Shown here piece by piece: positions 48,265-56,557 of a stretch of 64,000 nucleotides of DNA; the stretch's first letter is position 1; each line of letters opens with the position of its first letter. This DNA is from a virus: the IMG/VR virus record IMGVR_UViG_3300028412_000009, one strand, 5' to 3'. The position numbers and the translations under genes were made by a program. The notes beneath the pieces were generated by a model that saw nothing but the letters and a program-made list of their open reading frames with translations, was not told where the DNA came from and searched no databases.

Positions 48265-48863
48265 TGAAATTCAAGCAGGTGAGACACCTCCTTTGGTGTG
48301 ATTTGGAGACATCAAGCCTCCCAAAAAAGAATGACTACTCCGGTGTTCATATTTTGGAAGTTGGAGTTATTCTTACTGATATGTCTCTCAATAAGTTGGG
48401 AGGATACAGTGAAGTAATCAAGATGACCGACGAGGCCGCTGACTCTCTGCGCAAAACCCCTGGAGTTTTGGAGATGCACAAGAGTAGCGGCCTCTTGAAG
48501 GACTGCGTCAATGCGACGATGACAGTCCCGGATGTTGAGTCTGAGATCCTGGCGTTGCTTGATGACAACAACGTCGAGGTCCAAGCGGTAGCCCTTGCAG
48601 GCTCGGGAGTGACAGCGTTCGATCATCCCGTGATCAAGGAGCATATGCCTCTCCTTGCAGAGGCTCTGACGTACTTCAGTTATGACATTGGCTCTTTCCG
48701 CAGAATGTTCAAGCTTGTCAGTGGGGGAACGCCTATCGTCAATCCCTCCAACCACAGTTATGGGCCGACCAAGAAGCATCGAGCTATGGAGGACATCAAG
48801 GCTCATCTGGAGGAGGCTGAGGAATACATGGAGGCTGTCAAAAAGCTCCTTCCTCCCTTCTAG
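48264..48863 (+). CDS. DEDDh-family 3'-5' exonuclease (DnaQ-like)
   Basis: Exo I WCDLETSSL. Exo II VTAFDHPV. Exo III HRAMEDI (H-x4-D). Confidence 0.55.
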   Translation: MKFKQVRHLLWCDLETSSLPKKNDYSGVHILEVGVILTDMSLNKLGGYSEVIKMTDEAADSLRKTPGVLEMHKSSGLLKDCVNATMTVPDVESEILALLDDNNVEVQAVALAGSGVTAFDHPVIKEHMPLLAEALTYFSYDIGSFRRMFKLVSGGTPIVNPSNHSYGPTKKHRAMEDIKAHLEEAEEYMEAVKKLLPPF

Positions 48864-49037
48864 CCAGCAGAGGCTTGACAGGGGCTCACGGGGCGGGTAG
48901 AGTCAAGGGAACTGACTACAAAGAAAGGAACCTCATGGCGCATAACCGAACGGATGTGGGTGGCATGTTTGAATGCACCACCCACGATTGTTTGGGACTG
49001 AACTGTTGGCATCACCTCGGAGACTCTGAGGAAACAG

Positions 49038-49688
49038 ATGAGGAAGGGCCCCTTCTTGATTGAAGCAAAAGAGAGCCTTGCGAGGATCTCACGTTGGGCT
49101 AACGGAGATGTAGTGATCCCTGTTCCTTACATCCCTATCCCTCACTCCTTTAAGAGGAAGCGGAGATTGATGAAGGCGCGTGCTACAGCTAGGGACCGCC
49201 TTTCTTTGATGCAACAGCGAGAAGCCCGATACCAGGAAAGCCTGGCTGTTAATCCTGAGTTTAAGGACTGGTTCGCCTCTTTGAAGAAAAGGGAGCGAAG
49301 GGCCCTTTCGGTTGAGCCTCTAGGGGACTTCTATGTGGGCCAGGCGCGAGCCTCTTACGATATAAGGATCCGCCAGTCCCGTTGGGCCCGGGCTAAAAGG
49401 AATGCCACAAACAGGTATGCTCAGCTCACTTCTTTCAGGAGTAATCAGGATCATGTCCTCTCTCAATTAAGGAGTGGTGCTTTCACCAACGAGAACTCCG
49501 AACTTGCTGTTGGTCAAACCTGGCACTCTAAGAGAGATAATAGAACTGTGCAGATTGTCTCTCTTGGAGAGAAAGTTCATGCGGTCTCCTCGGCTGGAAG
49601 AGGGACAACCATGTCTTATGACGGATTGAAGAAAAACTATCTACCCGAGGCCCAGACTCTGTCCGTGCCTCAAGTTTGGAGAAACTGA
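49038..49688 (+). CDS. Hypothetical protein
   Basis: 216-aa basic ORF. Confidence 0.3.
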   Translation: MRKGPFLIEAKESLARISRWANGDVVIPVPYIPIPHSFKRKRRLMKARATARDRLSLMQQREARYQESLAVNPEFKDWFASLKKRERRALSVEPLGDFYVGQARASYDIRIRQSRWARAKRNATNRYAQLTSFRSNQDHVLSQLRSGAFTNENSELAVGQTWHSKRDNRTVQIVSLGEKVHAVSSAGRGTTMSYDGLKKNYLPEAQTLSVPQVWRN

Positions 49689-53709: not shown

Positions 53710-54410
53710 CAGAAATTCAGTTCTCAGATATTGCCGTAAATCTCATTGGCTCTATGGGATCTGACGCTTCTATTGTGCAGGCGGCTCGTGTTTCTCTTTC
53801 CGGAGAAAACGAGGTTGAAATGACCTCAAAGGAAGAGGGTCTTATCAATTATTTGATGAGAAATAAGCACGGGTCTCCCTTTGAACACACTACTCTCAAG
53901 TTCTATGTCAAAGCCCCCATCTTTGTGTTCCGTGAATTCCATAGACACAGGATCGGATTCAGTTACAATGAGATGAGTGGCCGATACACCAAGCTGAAAC
54001 CAGAGTTCTATCTTCCTTCTTGGGATAGGCCTTTGATCAATGTGGGGACTAGTGCCTCCCCTGATTTTGCTCCTGGGGATGAGTACCTCGTCACCAAACT
54101 TCGAGAGACTCTCGCTTCTCAGTATCGAAGTGCTTGGAATGATTATGAAGAGCTTATTGCTATGGGGGTTGCCAACGAGGTAGCCAGGGTGCTCCTTCCT
54201 GTGGGAATCATGAGCCAGATGTATGTCACGTGTAATGTTCGGTCCATGATGAGCTTCCTGTCTCTGCGCACCCAGGATGACCGCGCGGCTCATGTCTCGA
54301 AGCCTCAGCTGGAGATCCAGATGGTGGCTCGTCAGATGGAGGAGGCTTTTGCTGGGCTCTTCCCTGTCACCTACGCCAGCTACAACACCAACCAGCGTGT
54401 GGCTCCGTAG
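53706..54410 (+). CDS. thyX: Flavin-dependent thymidylate synthase ThyX
   Basis: ThyX signature REFHRHRIGFSYNEMSGRY (RHRxxxxxxxS-x-R). Confidence 0.85.
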   Translation: MTEIQFSDIAVNLIGSMGSDASIVQAARVSLSGENEVEMTSKEEGLINYLMRNKHGSPFEHTTLKFYVKAPIFVFREFHRHRIGFSYNEMSGRYTKLKPEFYLPSWDRPLINVGTSASPDFAPGDEYLVTKLRETLASQYRSAWNDYEELIAMGVANEVARVLLPVGIMSQMYVTCNVRSMMSFLSLRTQDDRAAHVSKPQLEIQMVARQMEEAFAGLFPVTYASYNTNQRVAP

Positions 54411-54450: not shown

Positions 54451-54480
54451 TTGACAAGGGCCCGGAGGGTCTGTAGTGTC
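54451..54480 (+). promoter_or_regulatory. Sigma-70-like promoter upstream of the Y RNA array
   Basis: TTGACA at 54451-54456, an 18-nt spacer, and TAGTGT at 54475-54480. Lies just downstream of an instance of the conserved 11-mer. Confidence 0.35.
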
Positions 54481-54506: not shown

Positions 54507-54592
54507 TTACACGAGCCGAAGAGGCAGTCGGTTATCATTCAAACTGAAATTATGCCCTCGGGCTATCCGACCCTCACCCCATGTTCGTGTGT
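54507..54592 (+). ncRNA. Y RNA-like element 1 (Ro60-binding-type stem with bulged C; internal GC hairpin gccctcgggc)
   Basis: 5' ttaCACGAGC-C-GAAGagg pairs with 3' cCTC-ACCCCAT-GTTCGTGtg. The architecture matches units 2 and 3. A GGTTATC box is shared by all three units. Confidence 0.4.
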
Positions 54593-54598
54593 TTCTTA

Positions 54599-54709
54599 GA
54601 ATGAGCCGAAGAGGCATCGGTTATCCCACTGAAAATGAGAACCTGGCGGTTCGATTCCGTCATTAGTTGGAACAGGTTATTTTTCCGATCTTCACCCCCA
54701 TGCTCATTC
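54599..54709 (+). ncRNA. Y RNA-like element 2 with tRNA-like T-arm
   Basis: 5' GAATGAGC-C-GAAG (54599-54611) pairs with 3' CTTC-ACCCCCAT-GCTCATTC (54690-54709). Internal T-arm GGCGG-TTCGATT-CCGTC at 54645-54661. Confidence 0.5.
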
Positions 54710-54713
54710 ACTC

Positions 54714-54755
54714 GCCTCTCTTGGAGGTTCATCGGGTTCGACTCCCGATGGAGGC
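54714..54755 (+). ncRNA. tRNA top-half-like minihelix (acceptor-like stem GCCTC/GAGGC enclosing a perfect T-arm)
   Basis: TCGGG-TTCGACT-CCCGA (54732-54748) flanked by gcctc...gaggc. No D-arm or anticodon arm is present. Confidence 0.3.
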
Positions 54756-54758
54756 ACA

Positions 54759-54892
54759 AAAACTGAACCGAAGAAGTATTGGTTATCCATGCTAAGGAAG
54801 AGGTCACGGGTTCGAATCCCGTCATCAGACCTAGTCTGATGTAGCTCAGAGGCAGAGCGCTTAAACCCAATCTTCACCCCATGTTCAGTTTT
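54759..54892 (+). ncRNA. Y RNA-like element 3 (YrlA-like) with a complete tRNA-mimic module
   Basis: Terminal stem AAAACTGAAC-C-GAAG (54759-54773) pairs with CTTC-ACCCCAT-GTTCAGTTTT (54872-54892). Inside are a T-arm ACGGG-TTCGAAT-CCCGT (54806-54822), an acceptor-like hairpin CATCAGAC-cta-GTCTGATG (54823-54841), a U8-A9-like TA, and a D-arm GCTC-AGAGGCA-GAGC (54844-54858). Confidence 0.55.
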
Positions 54893-54937
54893 ACCACATG
54901 TTCAGAAATACTGAACCGAGAGAAAGGATGAACACCT

Positions 54938-56557
54938 ATGGCTAACAATAGCCTCAAGTCCGTCACAACCCGACCCGGAATGACGGCCACTCCTCAGACG
55001 CAGAAGGCGGCTAAGGGGCAGAAGGAGAACAACGCAGGCGGCTACACGTTCACTGTCTCAGACATGGACCGAGCCAAGCGTTTCTTGATCCTTGGATCTG
55101 ACTCGTCGTTCTACCAGAGCGGCCAGGAGCTCTCCAAGGACAACGCCAAGAACCTGATCAAGCTTGCGAAGTCTGACCGTGCCCAGGAGCTCACTGACCT
55201 GATTGTGGAGATCTCCACTCAGGGTCGTGCGGCCAAGCAGGACCCCGGTCTGTTTGCACTGGCCGTCGTGGCTTCCCATGGCGCGACTGAGGACAAGCAG
55301 TACGCTCTGTCCAAGCTCTCTCAGGTAGCCCGTACCGGATCCTCGCTGTTCACGTTCATCACTTACGTGGAGCAGTTCCGAGGGTGGGGGCGTGCCCTGA
55401 CCAAGGCGGTTTCTTCTTGGTACACGGAGAAGTCTGTGGACAAGCTCGCCTACCAGACGGTGAAGTACCGTCAGCGTGATGGCTGGACTCACCGGGACGT
55501 GTTCCGCAAGGCGCACCCTCAGAAGGGCAAGAACGGAATCTCCGAAGGAGAGGATGCTCGTGCTTTTGAGGCGCTGGGTGAGTGGATTCTCCGAGGTGAG
55601 TTGTTGGAGAACACTCCTAAGCTTGTTCGCGGCTTCACGATGGCCCAGACTGCTTCTAAGTCTGAGCTTCCTGCTCTGATCAGGGAGTACGGACTGTCGT
55701 GGGAGATGCTTCCTACCGAGGCTCTGAACGACAAGAAGGTCTGGGAGACGTTGCTTCAGGGCAATGTTCCTCTCGGGGCCCTGTTGCGTCAGCTTCCTCG
55801 TTTGACGAAGCTCGGCATCGTCGCGCCTATGGGTGGAAAGACTGCTGAGATCGCCAAGAGGATCACTGATCCTGAGGAGCTCAAGCGTGCCCGTATCCAC
55901 CCCTTGAACCTTCTGGTTGCCCAGAAGACCTACGGGGCGGGGCACAGCCTCCGGGGCAATTCCTCCTGGGCCCCCAACCAGAAGATCGTGGACGCTCTTG
56001 ACAAGGCCTTCTACCTGTCCTTCAAGACGGTCGAGCCCGCTGGCAAGCGCACTCTGATTGGGTTGGATGTCTCCGGCTCGATGGGCTGGGCTTCAGTGGC
56101 CGGGGTTCCTCTCATGCCTTCCGAGGCAGGAGCGGCCCTTGCGTTGGTCATTGCCAACACGGAGCCTGAGGCGCACATCTTCGGATTTGCGGACACCTTC
56201 CGTGAGTTGGGCCTCTCCCCAGGGATGCGACTTGACCAGGCCCTGCGGCAGACAAGTTTAAGGACGTTCGGAGGCACGGACTGTGCTCAGGCCATCGAGT
56301 ACGCTCGTACTCACAAGTTGGAAGTGGACACGTTCCTTGTGATCACAGACAACGAAACCTACGGGGGTCGGAGTCACCCACACGAGGCCTTGCAGAGGTA
56401 CCGTCGAGAGACTGGCATCGATGCGAAGCTCATCGTGCTGGCGACTACTGCTTCCGAGTTCAGCCTCGCGGATCCCAGTGATGGTGGGATGCTGGACATC
56501 GCTGGGTTCGACTCAGCAGTTCCTCAGCTGATCAACGAGTTCTCTCGGGGACTCTGA
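54938..56557 (+). CDS. rsr: Ro60 orthologue (Rsr): TROVE domain plus C-terminal vWA domain
   Basis: 539 aa. The N-terminal and central region resembles TROVE. The vWA MIDAS motif LIGLDVSGSMGW (DxSGS) is followed by conserved vWA blocks. GC content and codon usage are higher than in the flanking phage genes. Confidence 0.8.
   Translation: MANNSLKSVTTRPGMTATPQTQKAAKGQKENNAGGYTFTVSDMDRAKRFLILGSDSSFYQSGQELSKDNAKNLIKLAKSDRAQELTDLIVEISTQGRAAKQDPGLFALAVVASHGATEDKQYALSKLSQVARTGSSLFTFITYVEQFRGWGRALTKAVSSWYTEKSVDKLAYQTVKYRQRDGWTHRDVFRKAHPQKGKNGISEGEDARAFEALGEWILRGELLENTPKLVRGFTMAQTASKSELPALIREYGLSWEMLPTEALNDKKVWETLLQGNVPLGALLRQLPRLTKLGIVAPMGGKTAEIAKRITDPEELKRARIHPLNLLVAQKTYGAGHSLRGNSSWAPNQKIVDALDKAFYLSFKTVEPAGKRTLIGLDVSGSMGWASVAGVPLMPSEAGAALALVIANTEPEAHIFGFADTFRELGLSPGMRLDQALRQTSLRTFGGTDCAQAIEYARTHKLEVDTFLVITDNETYGGRSHPHEALQRYRRETGIDAKLIVLATTASEFSLADPSDGGMLDIAGFDSAVPQLINEFSRGL

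What the first reader, a model, noticed from the sequence alone, without database searches (positions are those of the whole stretch)
54507..54892. Array of three Y-RNA-like elements immediately upstream of rsr, each closed by the same bulged-C helix
Three tandem units (about 54507-54592, 54599-54709 and 54759-54892) share the same architecture: a 5' strand STEM-C-GAAG and a 3' strand CTTC-ACCCC(C)AT-STEM. In each unit the outer stems are complementary (CACGAGC/GTTCGTG, GAATGAGC/GCTCATTC, AAAACTGAAC/GTTCAGTTTT). The GAAG/CTTC box, the single bulged C and the 7-8-nt 3' bulge are invariant. The outer stem sequences co-vary, which marks a structured RNA and a repeated protein-binding site. Ro60 binds a conserved bulged helix formed by the 5' and 3' ends of Y RNAs, and bacterial Y RNAs are typically encoded next to rsr, often in multiple copies. 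A TTGACA-N18-TAGTGT promoter lies at 54451-54480. A GGTTATC box follows the 5' stem half in all three units.
Basis: seen in the sequence. Interest (0 to 1): 0.9.

Follow-up and report, generated by a model that had tools for sequence, protein, structure and literature searches.

The report
Three phage Y RNAs upstream of rsr
A bacteriophage of an actinobacterium carries three small structured RNA genes (Y RNAs) directly in front of the gene for their partner protein Ro60/Rsr; this arrangement is already known and turns out to be the usual one in such phages, so it is a clean but ordinary example.

Summary
The three units are real. They lie at 54508-54591, 54599-54709 and 54759-54892 on the + strand, upstream of a full-length Ro60/Rsr gene (54938-56557). 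Their 5' and 3' boxes each occur exactly three times in 64 kb (0.01 and 0.18 expected).

A covariance model built only from Y-type units of other actinophages matches all three:
- Unit 3: 95.5 bits, end to end. It is YrlA-type, with T arm, acceptor-like hairpin and D arm.
- Unit 2: 39.4 bits, with a T arm only, like M. smegmatis YrlB.
- Unit 1: 39.2 bits, closing module only.

All three carry the published Rsr-binding motif GNCGAAN0-1G.

Covariation over 30 units shows CGAA sits unpaired in a 4 x 7-8 nt internal loop opposite ACCCC(C)AU. The next four bases, GA(G/A)G, pair with C(C/U)UC. There is no bulged-C GAAG:CTTC helix.

Arrays like this are the norm. There were 175 units in 65 of 80 phage rsr loci, all on the rsr strand, most often three per locus. 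Phage Y RNAs upstream of Ro60 are published (Chen 2014; Thermus phage phiLo 2025). So this is a new member of a known kind.

Two side observations remain untested: a Y-like hairpin fused to the rsr ribosome-binding site, and a T-arm element in the unit 2-unit 3 spacer.

The parts
54451..54479 (+). Promoter-like site TTGACA-N17-TAGTGT, about 28 nt upstream of unit 1
   Evidence: Read directly from the sequence. The pattern TTGACA-N16-18-TANNNT has 3 hits in the window against 0.66 expected. The other + strand hit (48875-48903, -10 TAGAGT) is also intergenic. Related phages have TTGACA-N17-TA(A/G)G(C/T)T next to their Y units or rsr leader. The site is not found by the strict sigma-70 scan. Activity is inferred.
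54508..54591 (+). Unit 1, a short Y RNA (84 nt) with no T arm. Parts: outer stem S1 54508-16/54583-91; CGAA 54517-20; H2 GAGG 54521-24 with CCUC 54572-75; H3 GUCGG 54527-31 with CCGAC 54567-71; UUAUC 54532-36; 3' loop ACCCCAU 54576-82
   Evidence: Fold -25.8 kcal/mol, z -2.46. Model R1 gives 39.2 bits, E 1.2e-9 over the 601 nt searched with filters off; the closing module matches end to end. It is 75% identical to a unit upstream of Ro in Microbacterium phage Cece.
54599..54709 (+). Unit 2, a 111-nt Y RNA with a T arm only (like M. smegmatis YrlB). Parts: S1 54599-606/54702-09; CGAA 54607-10; H2 GAGG 54611-14 with CUUC 54690-93; H3 AUCGG 54616-20 with CCGAU 54685-89; T arm 54645-61; 3' loop ACCCCCAU 54694-701
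   Evidence: R1 gives 39.4 bits, E 1.2e-7 over the whole window, end to end. The acceptor-like hairpin and D stem are missing, and a UA..GUUGGAA D-loop remnant is kept. The same subtype (105-117 nt, T arm only) recurs in Cece L001 803-913, L021 and L020.
54711..54757 (+). Spacer element: small hairpin GCCUCU-CUU-GGAGGU (54714-28) followed by a canonical T-arm hairpin AUCGGG-UUCGACU-CCCGAU (54731-49)
   Evidence: T-arm motif found. R1 matches the T arm only, 12.3 bits. MFE is -19.4 kcal/mol as two hairpins; an acceptor/T minihelix drawing scores only -1.8. It lies 4 nt after unit 2 and 1 nt before unit 3's stem. Real tRNAs keep the same spacing to Y units in other phages. Function is unknown; a role as a processing signal is inferred.
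54759..54892 (+). Unit 3, a YrlA-type Y RNA (134 nt). Parts: S1 54759-68/54883-92; CGAA 54769-72; H2 GAAG 54773-76 with CUUC 54872-75; H3 AUUGG 54778-82 with CCAAU 54867-71; UUAUC 54783-87; T arm 54806-22; acceptor-like hairpin (8 bp) 54823-41; UA 54842-43; D arm 54844-58; 3' loop ACCCCAU 54876-82
   Evidence: R1 gives 95.5 bits, E 3.7e-21, model positions 1-131 of 131. Rfam YrlA RF02553 gives 34.9 bits, E 7.5e-6, model 23-87, below the gathering score of 69. Fold -40.2 kcal/mol, z -3.2.
54893..54928 (+). rsr leader: ACCACAU, then hairpin GUUCAG-AAAUA-CUGAAC (54900-16), then CGAG (54917-20), then Shine-Dalgarno AAAGGA (54923-28). It is a joined copy of unit 3's 3' and 5' closing strands
   Evidence: Read from the sequence. 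The same hairpin + CGAA/CGGA + SD layout occurs in 8 other independent phage rsr leaders. Across the 9 leaders 98% of cells pair and 4 of 6 pairs show compensatory change, but the rows were selected for having a hairpin. Any operator function is inferred.
54938..56557 (+). rsr, the Ro60 orthologue (539 aa)
   Evidence: Pfam TROVE 5.4e-46 and vWA_Ro60 4.7e-55. PDB 2NVO 1.2e-114, 1YVP 7e-110, 9NEN 4e-106, all over the full length. The best phage relatives are 53-56% identical.

Best explanation
The 527-nt gap between thyX and rsr encodes three Y RNAs, the non-coding partners of the Ro60/Rsr protein encoded directly downstream.

Shared module. Each RNA is closed by the same Rsr-binding module:
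- an outer stem formed by the 5' and 3' ends;
- an asymmetric internal loop with invariant CGAA on the 5' side and ACCCC(C)AU on the 3' side;
- two short helices (4 bp and 5 bp) that end in GG of the GGUUAUC box.

Variable interior. Unit 3 has a circularly permuted tRNA-like domain (T arm, acceptor-like hairpin, D arm), which makes it YrlA-type. Unit 2 keeps only the T arm, like M. smegmatis YrlB. Unit 1 has a small hairpin domain.

Inferred mechanism.
- The array and rsr are transcribed together from the promoter-like site at 54451-54479. No terminator-like site lies between them.
- The precursor is cut into RNAs of about 84, 111 and 134 nt.
- Rsr binds the CGAA loop and outer stem of each RNA.
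- The variable domain tethers Rsr to an effector, which may be host PNPase or a tRNA-binding enzyme, or it gates access of other RNAs to the Rsr ring. This would redirect structured-RNA decay or quality control during infection.

Shown here: gene identity, motif, covariation-supported structure and family membership by covariance model. Inferred: transcription, processing, Rsr binding and the effector.
For: - The rsr orthologue is full length.
- The 5' and 3' boxes each occur exactly three times in 64 kb, against 0.01 and 0.18 expected.
- GNCGAAN0-1G is present in all three units (GCCGAAG, GCCGAAG, ACCGAAG). The motif is defined in PMC4201824.
- Closing module in 30 units from 11 phage loci, an alignment fitted to this structure (helix 2 and 3 register chosen to maximise pairing, outer stem required by the unit finder): outer stem 100% paired with 6 of 7 pairs compensatory; helix 2 86.7% paired with 4 of 4 compensatory; helix 3 99.3% paired with 3 of 5 compensatory. 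0 of 500 shuffles reach these values, and slid controls give 23-42% pairing.
- True 5'/3' halves pair better than mismatched halves, 8.43 against 6.62 of 9 pairs.
- An independent RNAalifold consensus of 10 non-window units gives the same architecture, with 22 of 31 pairs showing compensatory change.
- Model R1, built from those 10 units only, hits unit 3 at 95.5 bits (E 3.7e-21), unit 2 at 39.4 bits (E 1.2e-7) and unit 1 at 39.2 bits with filters off. Nothing else of note in the window matches (next hit 8 bits, E 4.4).
- R1 finds 175 units in 65 of 80 IMG/VR phage rsr loci. All are on the rsr strand and 165 are upstream. The commonest number per locus is three. Actinobacterial chromosomes carry 2-4 tandem units upstream of rsr.
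- Rfam gives a partial YrlA hit on unit 3.
- No Pfam family matches the small ORFs that overlap the array.
- Literature: M. smegmatis YrlA and YrlB lie upstream of rsr, come from one precursor and are bound by Rsr; YrlB has a T arm. Thermus phage phiLo Ro60 binds two upstream Yrl RNAs that have CGAA in an internal bulge.
Against: - No unit reaches Rfam's YrlA gathering score (34.9 against 69). This is weakened by the fact that every actinophage rsr locus tested also scores only 31-45 bits.
- Unit 1 has no tRNA-like feature and is recognised only through the closing module.
- Unit 2's fold energy is not unusual (z -0.84).
- No expression, processing or binding data exist for this phage.
- No close relative exists in any collection searched (best Rsr 53-56% identical). 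The covariation therefore comes from paralogous and distantly homologous units, not from orthologous arrays.
- The promoter is a consensus match only.
Confidence: 0.88

Rival explanations
1. The array is not released as separate small RNAs. It acts in cis as a long structured 5' UTR of the rsr mRNA, for example as a set of Rsr operator sites that feed back on rsr translation or stability.
For: There is only one promoter-like site, upstream of the array, and no terminator-like site between the array and rsr. The last 45 nt before the start codon contain a further Y-like hairpin fused to the Shine-Dalgarno sequence.
Against: In L021, A3Wally and Zooman a TTGACA-N17-TAnnnT promoter sits between the last Y unit and the rsr leader, so Y units and the rsr mRNA can be separate transcripts. 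In other phages homologous units lie among tRNA genes or downstream of rsr. In M. smegmatis the upstream YrlA and YrlB are processed from a precursor and bound in trans. The two roles are not mutually exclusive.
Confidence: 0.07
2. Each unit is closed by a metazoan-type Ro-binding helix in which a single C is bulged and GAAG pairs with CTTC.
For: Units 2 and 3 can be drawn this way. Metazoan Y RNAs do have a bulged helix contacted by Ro60 (citing Stein 2005 and Green 1998).
Against: Unit 1 has CCTC, which gives an A.C mismatch. Across 30 units this register pairs only 56.7% of cells with no compensatory change, against 86.7% and 4 of 4 pairs for the alternative register, although alignment A2 was fitted to the alternative register. 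RNAfold and RNAalifold both leave CGAA unpaired. Rfam's YrlA consensus also has a 5 x 8 internal loop at this place.
Confidence: 0.05
3. The units are decayed tRNA genes or tRNA-derived repeats with no functional link to Rsr.
For: T-arm sequences occur in units 2 and 3 and in the spacer. There are weak tRNA and tmRNA model hits. ARAGORN calls 'tRNAs' that overlap homologous units in other loci.
Against: ARAGORN finds no tRNA in the window, and the Rfam tRNA score is 14 bits against a threshold of 29. The part conserved in all three units, and supported by covariation, is the non-tRNA closing module with CGAA. All 175 homologous units in the 80 IMG/VR rsr loci lie on the rsr strand.
Confidence: 0.02

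Closest known systems
Mycobacterium smegmatis YrlA and YrlB (Chen et al. 2014, RNA 20:1715, PMC4201824)
   Same: It is also an actinobacterial-type locus. Several Y RNAs are encoded upstream of rsr on the same strand and are made from one precursor. One has the full tRNA-like domain (YrlA, like unit 3) and one has only a T arm (YrlB, like unit 2). The GNCGAAN0-1G motif lies near the 5' end. The acceptor-like stem is at least 7 bp (8 bp in unit 3), the feature those authors link to RNase P cleavage.
   Different: This locus has three units rather than two, including a short unit with no tRNA-like feature. The T-arm-only unit lies upstream of the YrlA-type unit here, whereas YrlB lies between YrlA and rsr in M. 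smegmatis. This locus is phage-borne. No expression or binding data exist here.
Thermus phage phiLo Yrl1 and Yrl2 with phage Ro60 (NAR 2025, PMC12135203)
   Same: A phage-encoded Ro60 has several Y RNA-like genes directly upstream. They were found through the CGAA motif, which sits in a large internal bulge flanked by a 5'-3' stem. Binding to the phage Ro60, and formation of a complex with host PNPase, were shown experimentally.
   Different: The host phylum differs and the number of RNAs is two rather than three. Those RNAs were not searched here, so sequence similarity to the window's units is unknown.
Salmonella Typhimurium YrlA (Rfam RF02553; structure 6CU1; bioRxiv 10.1101/312249)
   Same: The modular plan is the same. 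A closing stem with an asymmetric internal loop carries the Rsr site. It is followed by an anticodon-stem-like helix, a YUAY box (here UUAU in GGUUAUC), T arm, acceptor-like hairpin and D arm. Unit 3 aligns to model positions 23-87.
   Different: Unit 3 scores only 34.9 bits against the gathering score of 69, and the closing module does not align to the Rfam model. In Salmonella the RNAs lie 3' of rsr and are under RtcR control. [quoted passage not shown] Here the 3' loop strand ACCCC(C)AU is identical in all three units and A/C-rich across the clade.
Metazoan Y RNAs (Ro60-binding bulged helix)
   Same: The 5' and 3' ends pair to form the Ro60 site. The sequence resembles the metazoan one (GGUCCGA against GNCGAA).
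   Different: The bulged-C helix register is not supported here. The effector domain is tRNA-like rather than a pyrimidine-rich loop.

Membership tests
Bacterial/phage Y RNA, YrlA type (Chen 2014 criteria; Rfam RF02553) | Encoded within 4 kb of a Ro60 orthologue and on the same strand | tested here: met
   All three units lie 46-430 nt upstream of rsr (54938-56557) on the + strand.
Bacterial/phage Y RNA, YrlA type (Chen 2014 criteria; Rfam RF02553) | GNCGAAN0-1G motif near the 5' end | tested here: met
   GCCGAAG (units 1 and 2) and ACCGAAG (unit 3), directly after the outer stem.
Bacterial/phage Y RNA, YrlA type (Chen 2014 criteria; Rfam RF02553) | The 5' and 3' ends pair into a long stem that holds the Ro60 site | tested here: met
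   Outer stems of 8-10 bp plus two inner helices are predicted for each unit. They are supported by covariation in 30 homologous units and by an independent RNAalifold consensus.
Bacterial/phage Y RNA, YrlA type (Chen 2014 criteria; Rfam RF02553) | tRNA-like domain with T arm, acceptor-like hairpin and D arm | tested here: met
   Met for unit 3 only: T arm 54806-22, acceptor-like hairpin 54823-41, D arm 54844-58. Unit 2 has the T arm and a D-loop remnant only. Unit 1 has none. Units 1 and 2 are therefore Y RNAs but not YrlA in the strict sense.
Bacterial/phage Y RNA, YrlA type (Chen 2014 criteria; Rfam RF02553) | Reaches the Rfam gathering score for YrlA (69 bits) | tested here: not met
   Best score is 34.9 bits, a partial match on unit 3. 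All 12 other actinophage rsr loci tested also score at most 45.4 bits. The threshold therefore excludes the whole clade, not just this locus.
Bacterial/phage Y RNA, YrlA type (Chen 2014 criteria; Rfam RF02553) | Significant covariance-model match (Chen 2014 used Infernal E < 5e-5) | tested here: met
   A custom model built without window sequences gives E 3.7e-21 for unit 3, 1.2e-7 for unit 2 (whole window) and 1.2e-9 for unit 1 (601 nt, filters off). This is a different model from Chen's, and its calibration is shortened.
Bacterial/phage Y RNA, YrlA type (Chen 2014 criteria; Rfam RF02553) | Discrete stable transcript bound by Rsr in vivo | not testable with these tools
   This needs northern blots or small-RNA sequencing and Rsr immunoprecipitation.
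Metazoan-type Y RNA Ro-binding helix | Conserved helix with a single bulged C, in which the bases after the C are Watson-Crick paired | tested here: not met
In the alternative register 86.7% pair with 4 of 4 compensatory. Alignment A2 was fitted to the alternative register, which favours it.
tRNA gene | Cloverleaf recognised by ARAGORN, or the Rfam tRNA model at 29 bits or more | tested here: not met
   ARAGORN finds 0 genes in the window. The Rfam tRNA model gives 14 bits on unit 2.

The most novel reading that the evidence does not exclude
The rsr leader (54893-54928) may be an Rsr operator. It is a circularly permuted copy of the Y RNA closing module, laid out as 3'-loop strand ACCACAU, then stem GUUCAG, a 5-nt loop, stem CUGAAC, then CGAG, running directly into the Shine-Dalgarno sequence. 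Free Rsr, meaning Rsr not occupied by Y RNA, would bind its own mRNA there and block translation. A related possibility is that the T-arm element in the unit 2-unit 3 spacer is a stripped-down tRNA kept as a cleavage signal for RNase P or RNase Z, doing the job that real tRNA genes do next to Y units in related phages. The hairpin + CGAA/CGGA + SD layout recurs in 8 other independent phage rsr leaders with covarying stems. tRNAs abut Y units at 1-5 nt and 3-9 nt. I found no paper that describes either idea.
Probability: 0.25. Interest if true: 0.55.

Novelty: new member of a known kind. Interest (0 to 1): 0.3.

Why it matters
As a Y RNA locus this adds little. Phage-encoded Ro60 with upstream Y RNAs has been known since 2014, and binding was shown for phage phiLo in 2025.

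The comparative work gives three practical results:
- The published Rfam YrlA model misses the whole actinophage and actinobacterial clade at its gathering score, and some of these RNAs are annotated as tRNA genes. A clade-specific model finds 2-6 units at most rsr loci.
- The Rsr-binding module of this clade is now defined with covariation support: CGAA sits in a 4 x 7-8 internal loop opposite an A/C-rich strand. This is the construct to use for binding or structural work.
- Arrays repeatedly combine three unit types: short, T-arm-only and full tRNA-like. This suggests that one Rsr is paired with different effector modules.

If the leader hairpin proves to be an Rsr operator, it would, as far as I could find, be the first feedback loop described for a Ro60 protein.

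Tried and rejected
- The Rfam gathering search of the whole window found nothing. Only the permissive search gave the partial YrlA hit. The other permissive hits (tmRNA, Plastid-ycf2, sR55, isrK) are explained by T-arm-like sequence or by chance.
- Megablast of 24 kb against 50,697 phage records gave no match. Protein-guided scans of viral, metagenome and genome collections found no Rsr more than 56% identical over its length. Orthologous arrays for unit-by-unit covariation could therefore not be obtained. I used homologous units from other phages instead.
- Plain MAFFT alignment of the 5'/3' half constructs left the 3' halves out of register. I replaced it with an N-padded structural alignment.
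- The drawing of the spacer element as an acceptor/T minihelix is rejected as the preferred fold. It scores -1.8 against -19.4 kcal/mol for two hairpins.
- The permuted-module fold of the leader that includes a UUUU:AGAA helix is weak: -3.9 against -11.7 kcal/mol for the isolated fragment. Only the central hairpin is retained.
- Enrichment of the leader hairpin over all 96 rsr loci is modest, 14 loci against about 5.5 expected. It is a feature of one subclade. CGAA next to the SD also occurs without a hairpin in bacterial loci.
- Protein coding for the overlapping small ORFs is rejected. There is no Pfam match and the conservation pattern is RNA-like.
- The supplementary tables of Chen 2014 and the 2020 Annual Review were not available.
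Full report
**What is there.** The window comes from a tailed phage with almost all genes on the + strand. It has a tape-measure protein, DNA polymerase, exonuclease, dNMP kinase and ThyX. Its DNA polymerase is closest to Microbacterium phage Magritte at 50% identity. No DNA-level relative exists in 50,697 phage records. The ORF at 54938-56557 is a full-length Ro60/Rsr orthologue. Pfam gives TROVE 5e-46 and vWA_Ro60 5e-55. It matches D. radiodurans Rsr 2NVO at 1e-114 and X. laevis Ro60 1YVP at 7e-110. Between thyX (ending at 54410) and rsr lies a 527-nt non-coding gap that holds the finding.

**Check of the observation.**
- The 5' box CCGAAGA-N5-8-GGTTATC occurs exactly three times in 64 kb, only here, against 0.01 expected.
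- The 3' box TCACCCC(N)ATG also occurs exactly three times, only here, against 0.18 expected.
- The outer stems are complementary as stated.
- Each unit folds alone into the same closing architecture, and does so again when the whole 474-nt region is folded.

Three details are wrong:
- Unit 1 has CCTC, not CTTC.
- The promoter spacer is 17 nt, so the site is 54451-54479.
- The proposed pairing register does not hold (see below).

**Family membership.** Rfam at its gathering thresholds finds nothing. A permissive search gives one meaningful hit: YrlA, 34.9 bits, E 7.5e-6, on the T arm, acceptor-like hairpin and D arm of unit 3. The score is below the gathering score of 69. The same is true of every actinophage rsr locus I fetched, which score 31-45 bits, so the threshold excludes the clade rather than this locus.

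I then built a test that does not depend on the window.
- Ten YrlA-type units from other phages (Cece, Magritte, Mareelih and four IMG/VR contigs) were aligned.
- RNAalifold predicted an outer stem, a 4-nt 5' loop, two inner helices, T arm, acceptor-like hairpin, D arm and a 7-nt 3' loop. Of 31 pairs, 22 show compensatory change.
- The resulting covariance model R1 was run on the whole window. It hits unit 3 end to end at 95.5 bits (E 3.7e-21) and unit 2 end to end at 39.4 bits (E 1.2e-7). Nothing else of note matches.
- With filters off it also finds unit 1 at 39.2 bits through the closing module alone.
- All three units carry GNCGAAN0-1G, the motif Chen et al. 2014 associated with Rsr recognition.

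**Structure of the shared module.** A motif-plus-pairing scan found 30 homologous units in 11 phage loci. I parsed them into fixed fields and aligned them.
- In the structure where CGAA is unpaired, the outer stem is 100% paired with 6 of 7 pairs compensatory. Note that the finder required this stem.
- The 4-bp helix directly after CGAA is 86.7% paired with 4 of 4 pairs compensatory.
- The 5-bp helix that ends in GG of GGUUAUC is 99.3% paired with 3 of 5 pairs compensatory.
- No shuffle out of 500 reaches these values, and slid controls give 23-42% pairing.
- True 5'/3' halves pair better than mismatched halves, 8.43 against 6.62 of 9 pairs.
- The parse chose 3'-loop and bulge lengths that maximise pairing in helices 2 and 3, so alignment A2 leans toward my register. 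The RNAalifold consensus, which was not fitted this way, gives the same register.
- Within the window the diagnostic pair runs G-C, G-U, A-U in units 1, 2 and 3.

So CGAA lies in a 4 x 7-8 internal loop opposite ACCCC(C)AU. This agrees with the Rfam YrlA consensus and with the description of the phiLo Yrl RNAs. The GGTTATC box is the end of the inner helix plus UUAU, which fits the conserved YUAY reported for YrlA RNAs.

**How typical it is.** Model R1 finds 52 units in 16 of 18 loci fetched early. In 80 further phage rsr loci from IMG/VR it finds 175 units in 65 loci. All are on the rsr strand and 165 are upstream. The counts per locus are:

| Units per locus | Loci |
|---|---|
| 1 | 11 |
| 2 | 18 |
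| 3 | 22 |
| 4 | 11 |
| 6 | 3 |

. Actinobacterial chromosomes such as Micropruina, Nocardia and Nocardioides carry 2-4 tandem units upstream of rsr as well. Three unit types recur: short without a T arm (like unit 1), about 105-117 nt with a T arm only (like unit 2), and about 130-136 nt with the full tRNA-like domain (like unit 3). A three-unit array upstream of rsr is therefore the commonest arrangement, not an oddity.

**What is already published.**
- Chen et al. 2014 reported YrlA-like RNAs near Ro60 in 254 bacteria and 22 phages.
- They showed that M. smegmatis YrlA and YrlB lie upstream of rsr, are processed from one precursor and are bound by Rsr, and that YrlB has a T arm.
- The 2025 phiLo study found two Yrl RNAs upstream of a phage Ro60 through the CGAA motif. 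It showed binding and a complex with host PNPase.
- The window's locus is a new member of this known kind.

**Likely mechanism (inferred).**
- Transcription starts at the promoter-like site at 54451-54479. The pattern has 3 hits against 0.66 expected, both + strand hits are intergenic, and related phages have similar sites.
- No terminator-like site lies before rsr on the + strand, so the array and rsr are probably co-transcribed and the RNAs cut out afterwards.
- Rsr would bind the CGAA loop and outer stem. The variable domains would tether or gate Rsr, by analogy with D. radiodurans RYPER and phiLo.
- None of this is shown for this phage.

**Side observations.**
1. The 45 nt before the rsr start codon read ACCACAU-GUUCAG-AAAUA-CUGAAC-CGAG-AGAAAGGA. 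This is a copy of unit 3's 3' strand joined to a copy of its 5' strand, running into the Shine-Dalgarno sequence.
   - The same hairpin + CGAA/CGGA + SD layout is found in Cece, A3Wally, Zooman and five IMG/VR loci, with covarying stems.
   - In three of these loci a promoter sits directly upstream of the hairpin.
   - It could be an Rsr operator.
   - Enrichment over all loci is modest (14 of 96 against about 5.5 expected), the rows in the covariation count were selected for a hairpin, and CGAA next to the SD also occurs without a hairpin in bacterial loci.
2. The spacer between units 2 and 3 holds a small hairpin plus a canonical T-arm hairpin (54711-54757).
   - It sits 4 nt after unit 2 and 1 nt before unit 3's stem.
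   - In other phages real tRNAs flank Y units at 1-5 nt (7 of 8 cases) and 3-9 nt (9 of 12 cases).
   - L002 has a comparable orphan acceptor+T element between two units.
   - A processing role is plausible, but the minihelix fold is not energetically favoured.
3. ARAGORN makes 15 tRNA calls that overlap Y units (by more than 20 nt; 12 are listed in the output), several on the 5' half of a YrlA-type unit. The same applies to the GenBank annotation of Magritte gene 117, 'tRNA-Arg(tct)'.

**Verdict.** The Y RNA interpretation is supported. The bulged-C helix is not. The finding is a new member of a known kind, with modest interest.

Noticed in passing
window 54893-54928: The rsr leader is a hairpin (GUUCAG-AAAUA-CUGAAC). 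It is flanked by ACCACAU and CGAG, which copy unit 3's 3' and 5' closing strands, and it runs straight into the Shine-Dalgarno sequence AAAGGA 9 nt before the ATG. The same hairpin + CGAA/CGGA + SD layout, with covarying stems, occurs in 8 other independent phage rsr leaders. It may be an Rsr operator.
   Followed up: partly
window 54711-54757: The spacer between units 2 and 3 holds a small hairpin plus a canonical T-arm hairpin (AUCGGG-UUCGACU-CCCGAU). It sits at the spacing that real tRNA genes keep to Y units in other phages (1-5 nt and 3-9 nt). Its fold as an acceptor/T minihelix is energetically poor (-1.8 against -19.4 kcal/mol).
   Followed up: partly
L010 976-1052 (Microbacterium phage Magritte, OR553905.1 76028-76104): The annotated gene 117, 'tRNA-Arg(tct)', lies inside a YrlA-type unit (L010 982-1110, 121.8 bits with model R1). 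The Rfam tRNA model gives no hit there. ARAGORN makes 15 tRNA calls that overlap Y units by more than 20 nt across the loci scanned (12 are listed in the output). These are likely misannotations.
   Followed up: partly
L001-L014 and window: Rfam's YrlA model (gathering score 69 bits) scores all actinophage Y RNA units tested at only 31-45 bits. Standard annotation will therefore miss the whole clade.
   Followed up: yes
window 48875-48903: A second promoter-like site, TTGACA-N17-TAGAGT, lies in the intergenic gap between the ORFs ending at 48863 and starting at 49038. It has the same -10 type and a G-rich spacer like the site at 54451-54479.
   Followed up: no
L014 3888-4520 (Gordonia phage Mareelih); L001 727-914 (Cece): Y RNA units are interleaved with tRNA and tmRNA genes, with gaps of only 2-8 nt. 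Some lie downstream of rsr. This implies co-processing with tRNAs.
   Followed up: partly
L116-L135 (Micropruina, Nocardia, Nocardioides and other actinobacterial chromosomes): Chromosomal rsr loci of Actinomycetota carry 2-4 tandem units upstream of rsr that match the phage-derived model at up to 102 bits. The last unit ends 20-35 nt before the start codon.
   Followed up: partly
window 1-64000: ARAGORN finds no tRNA gene anywhere in the 64-kb window, although many related rsr loci sit inside tRNA clusters.
   Followed up: no
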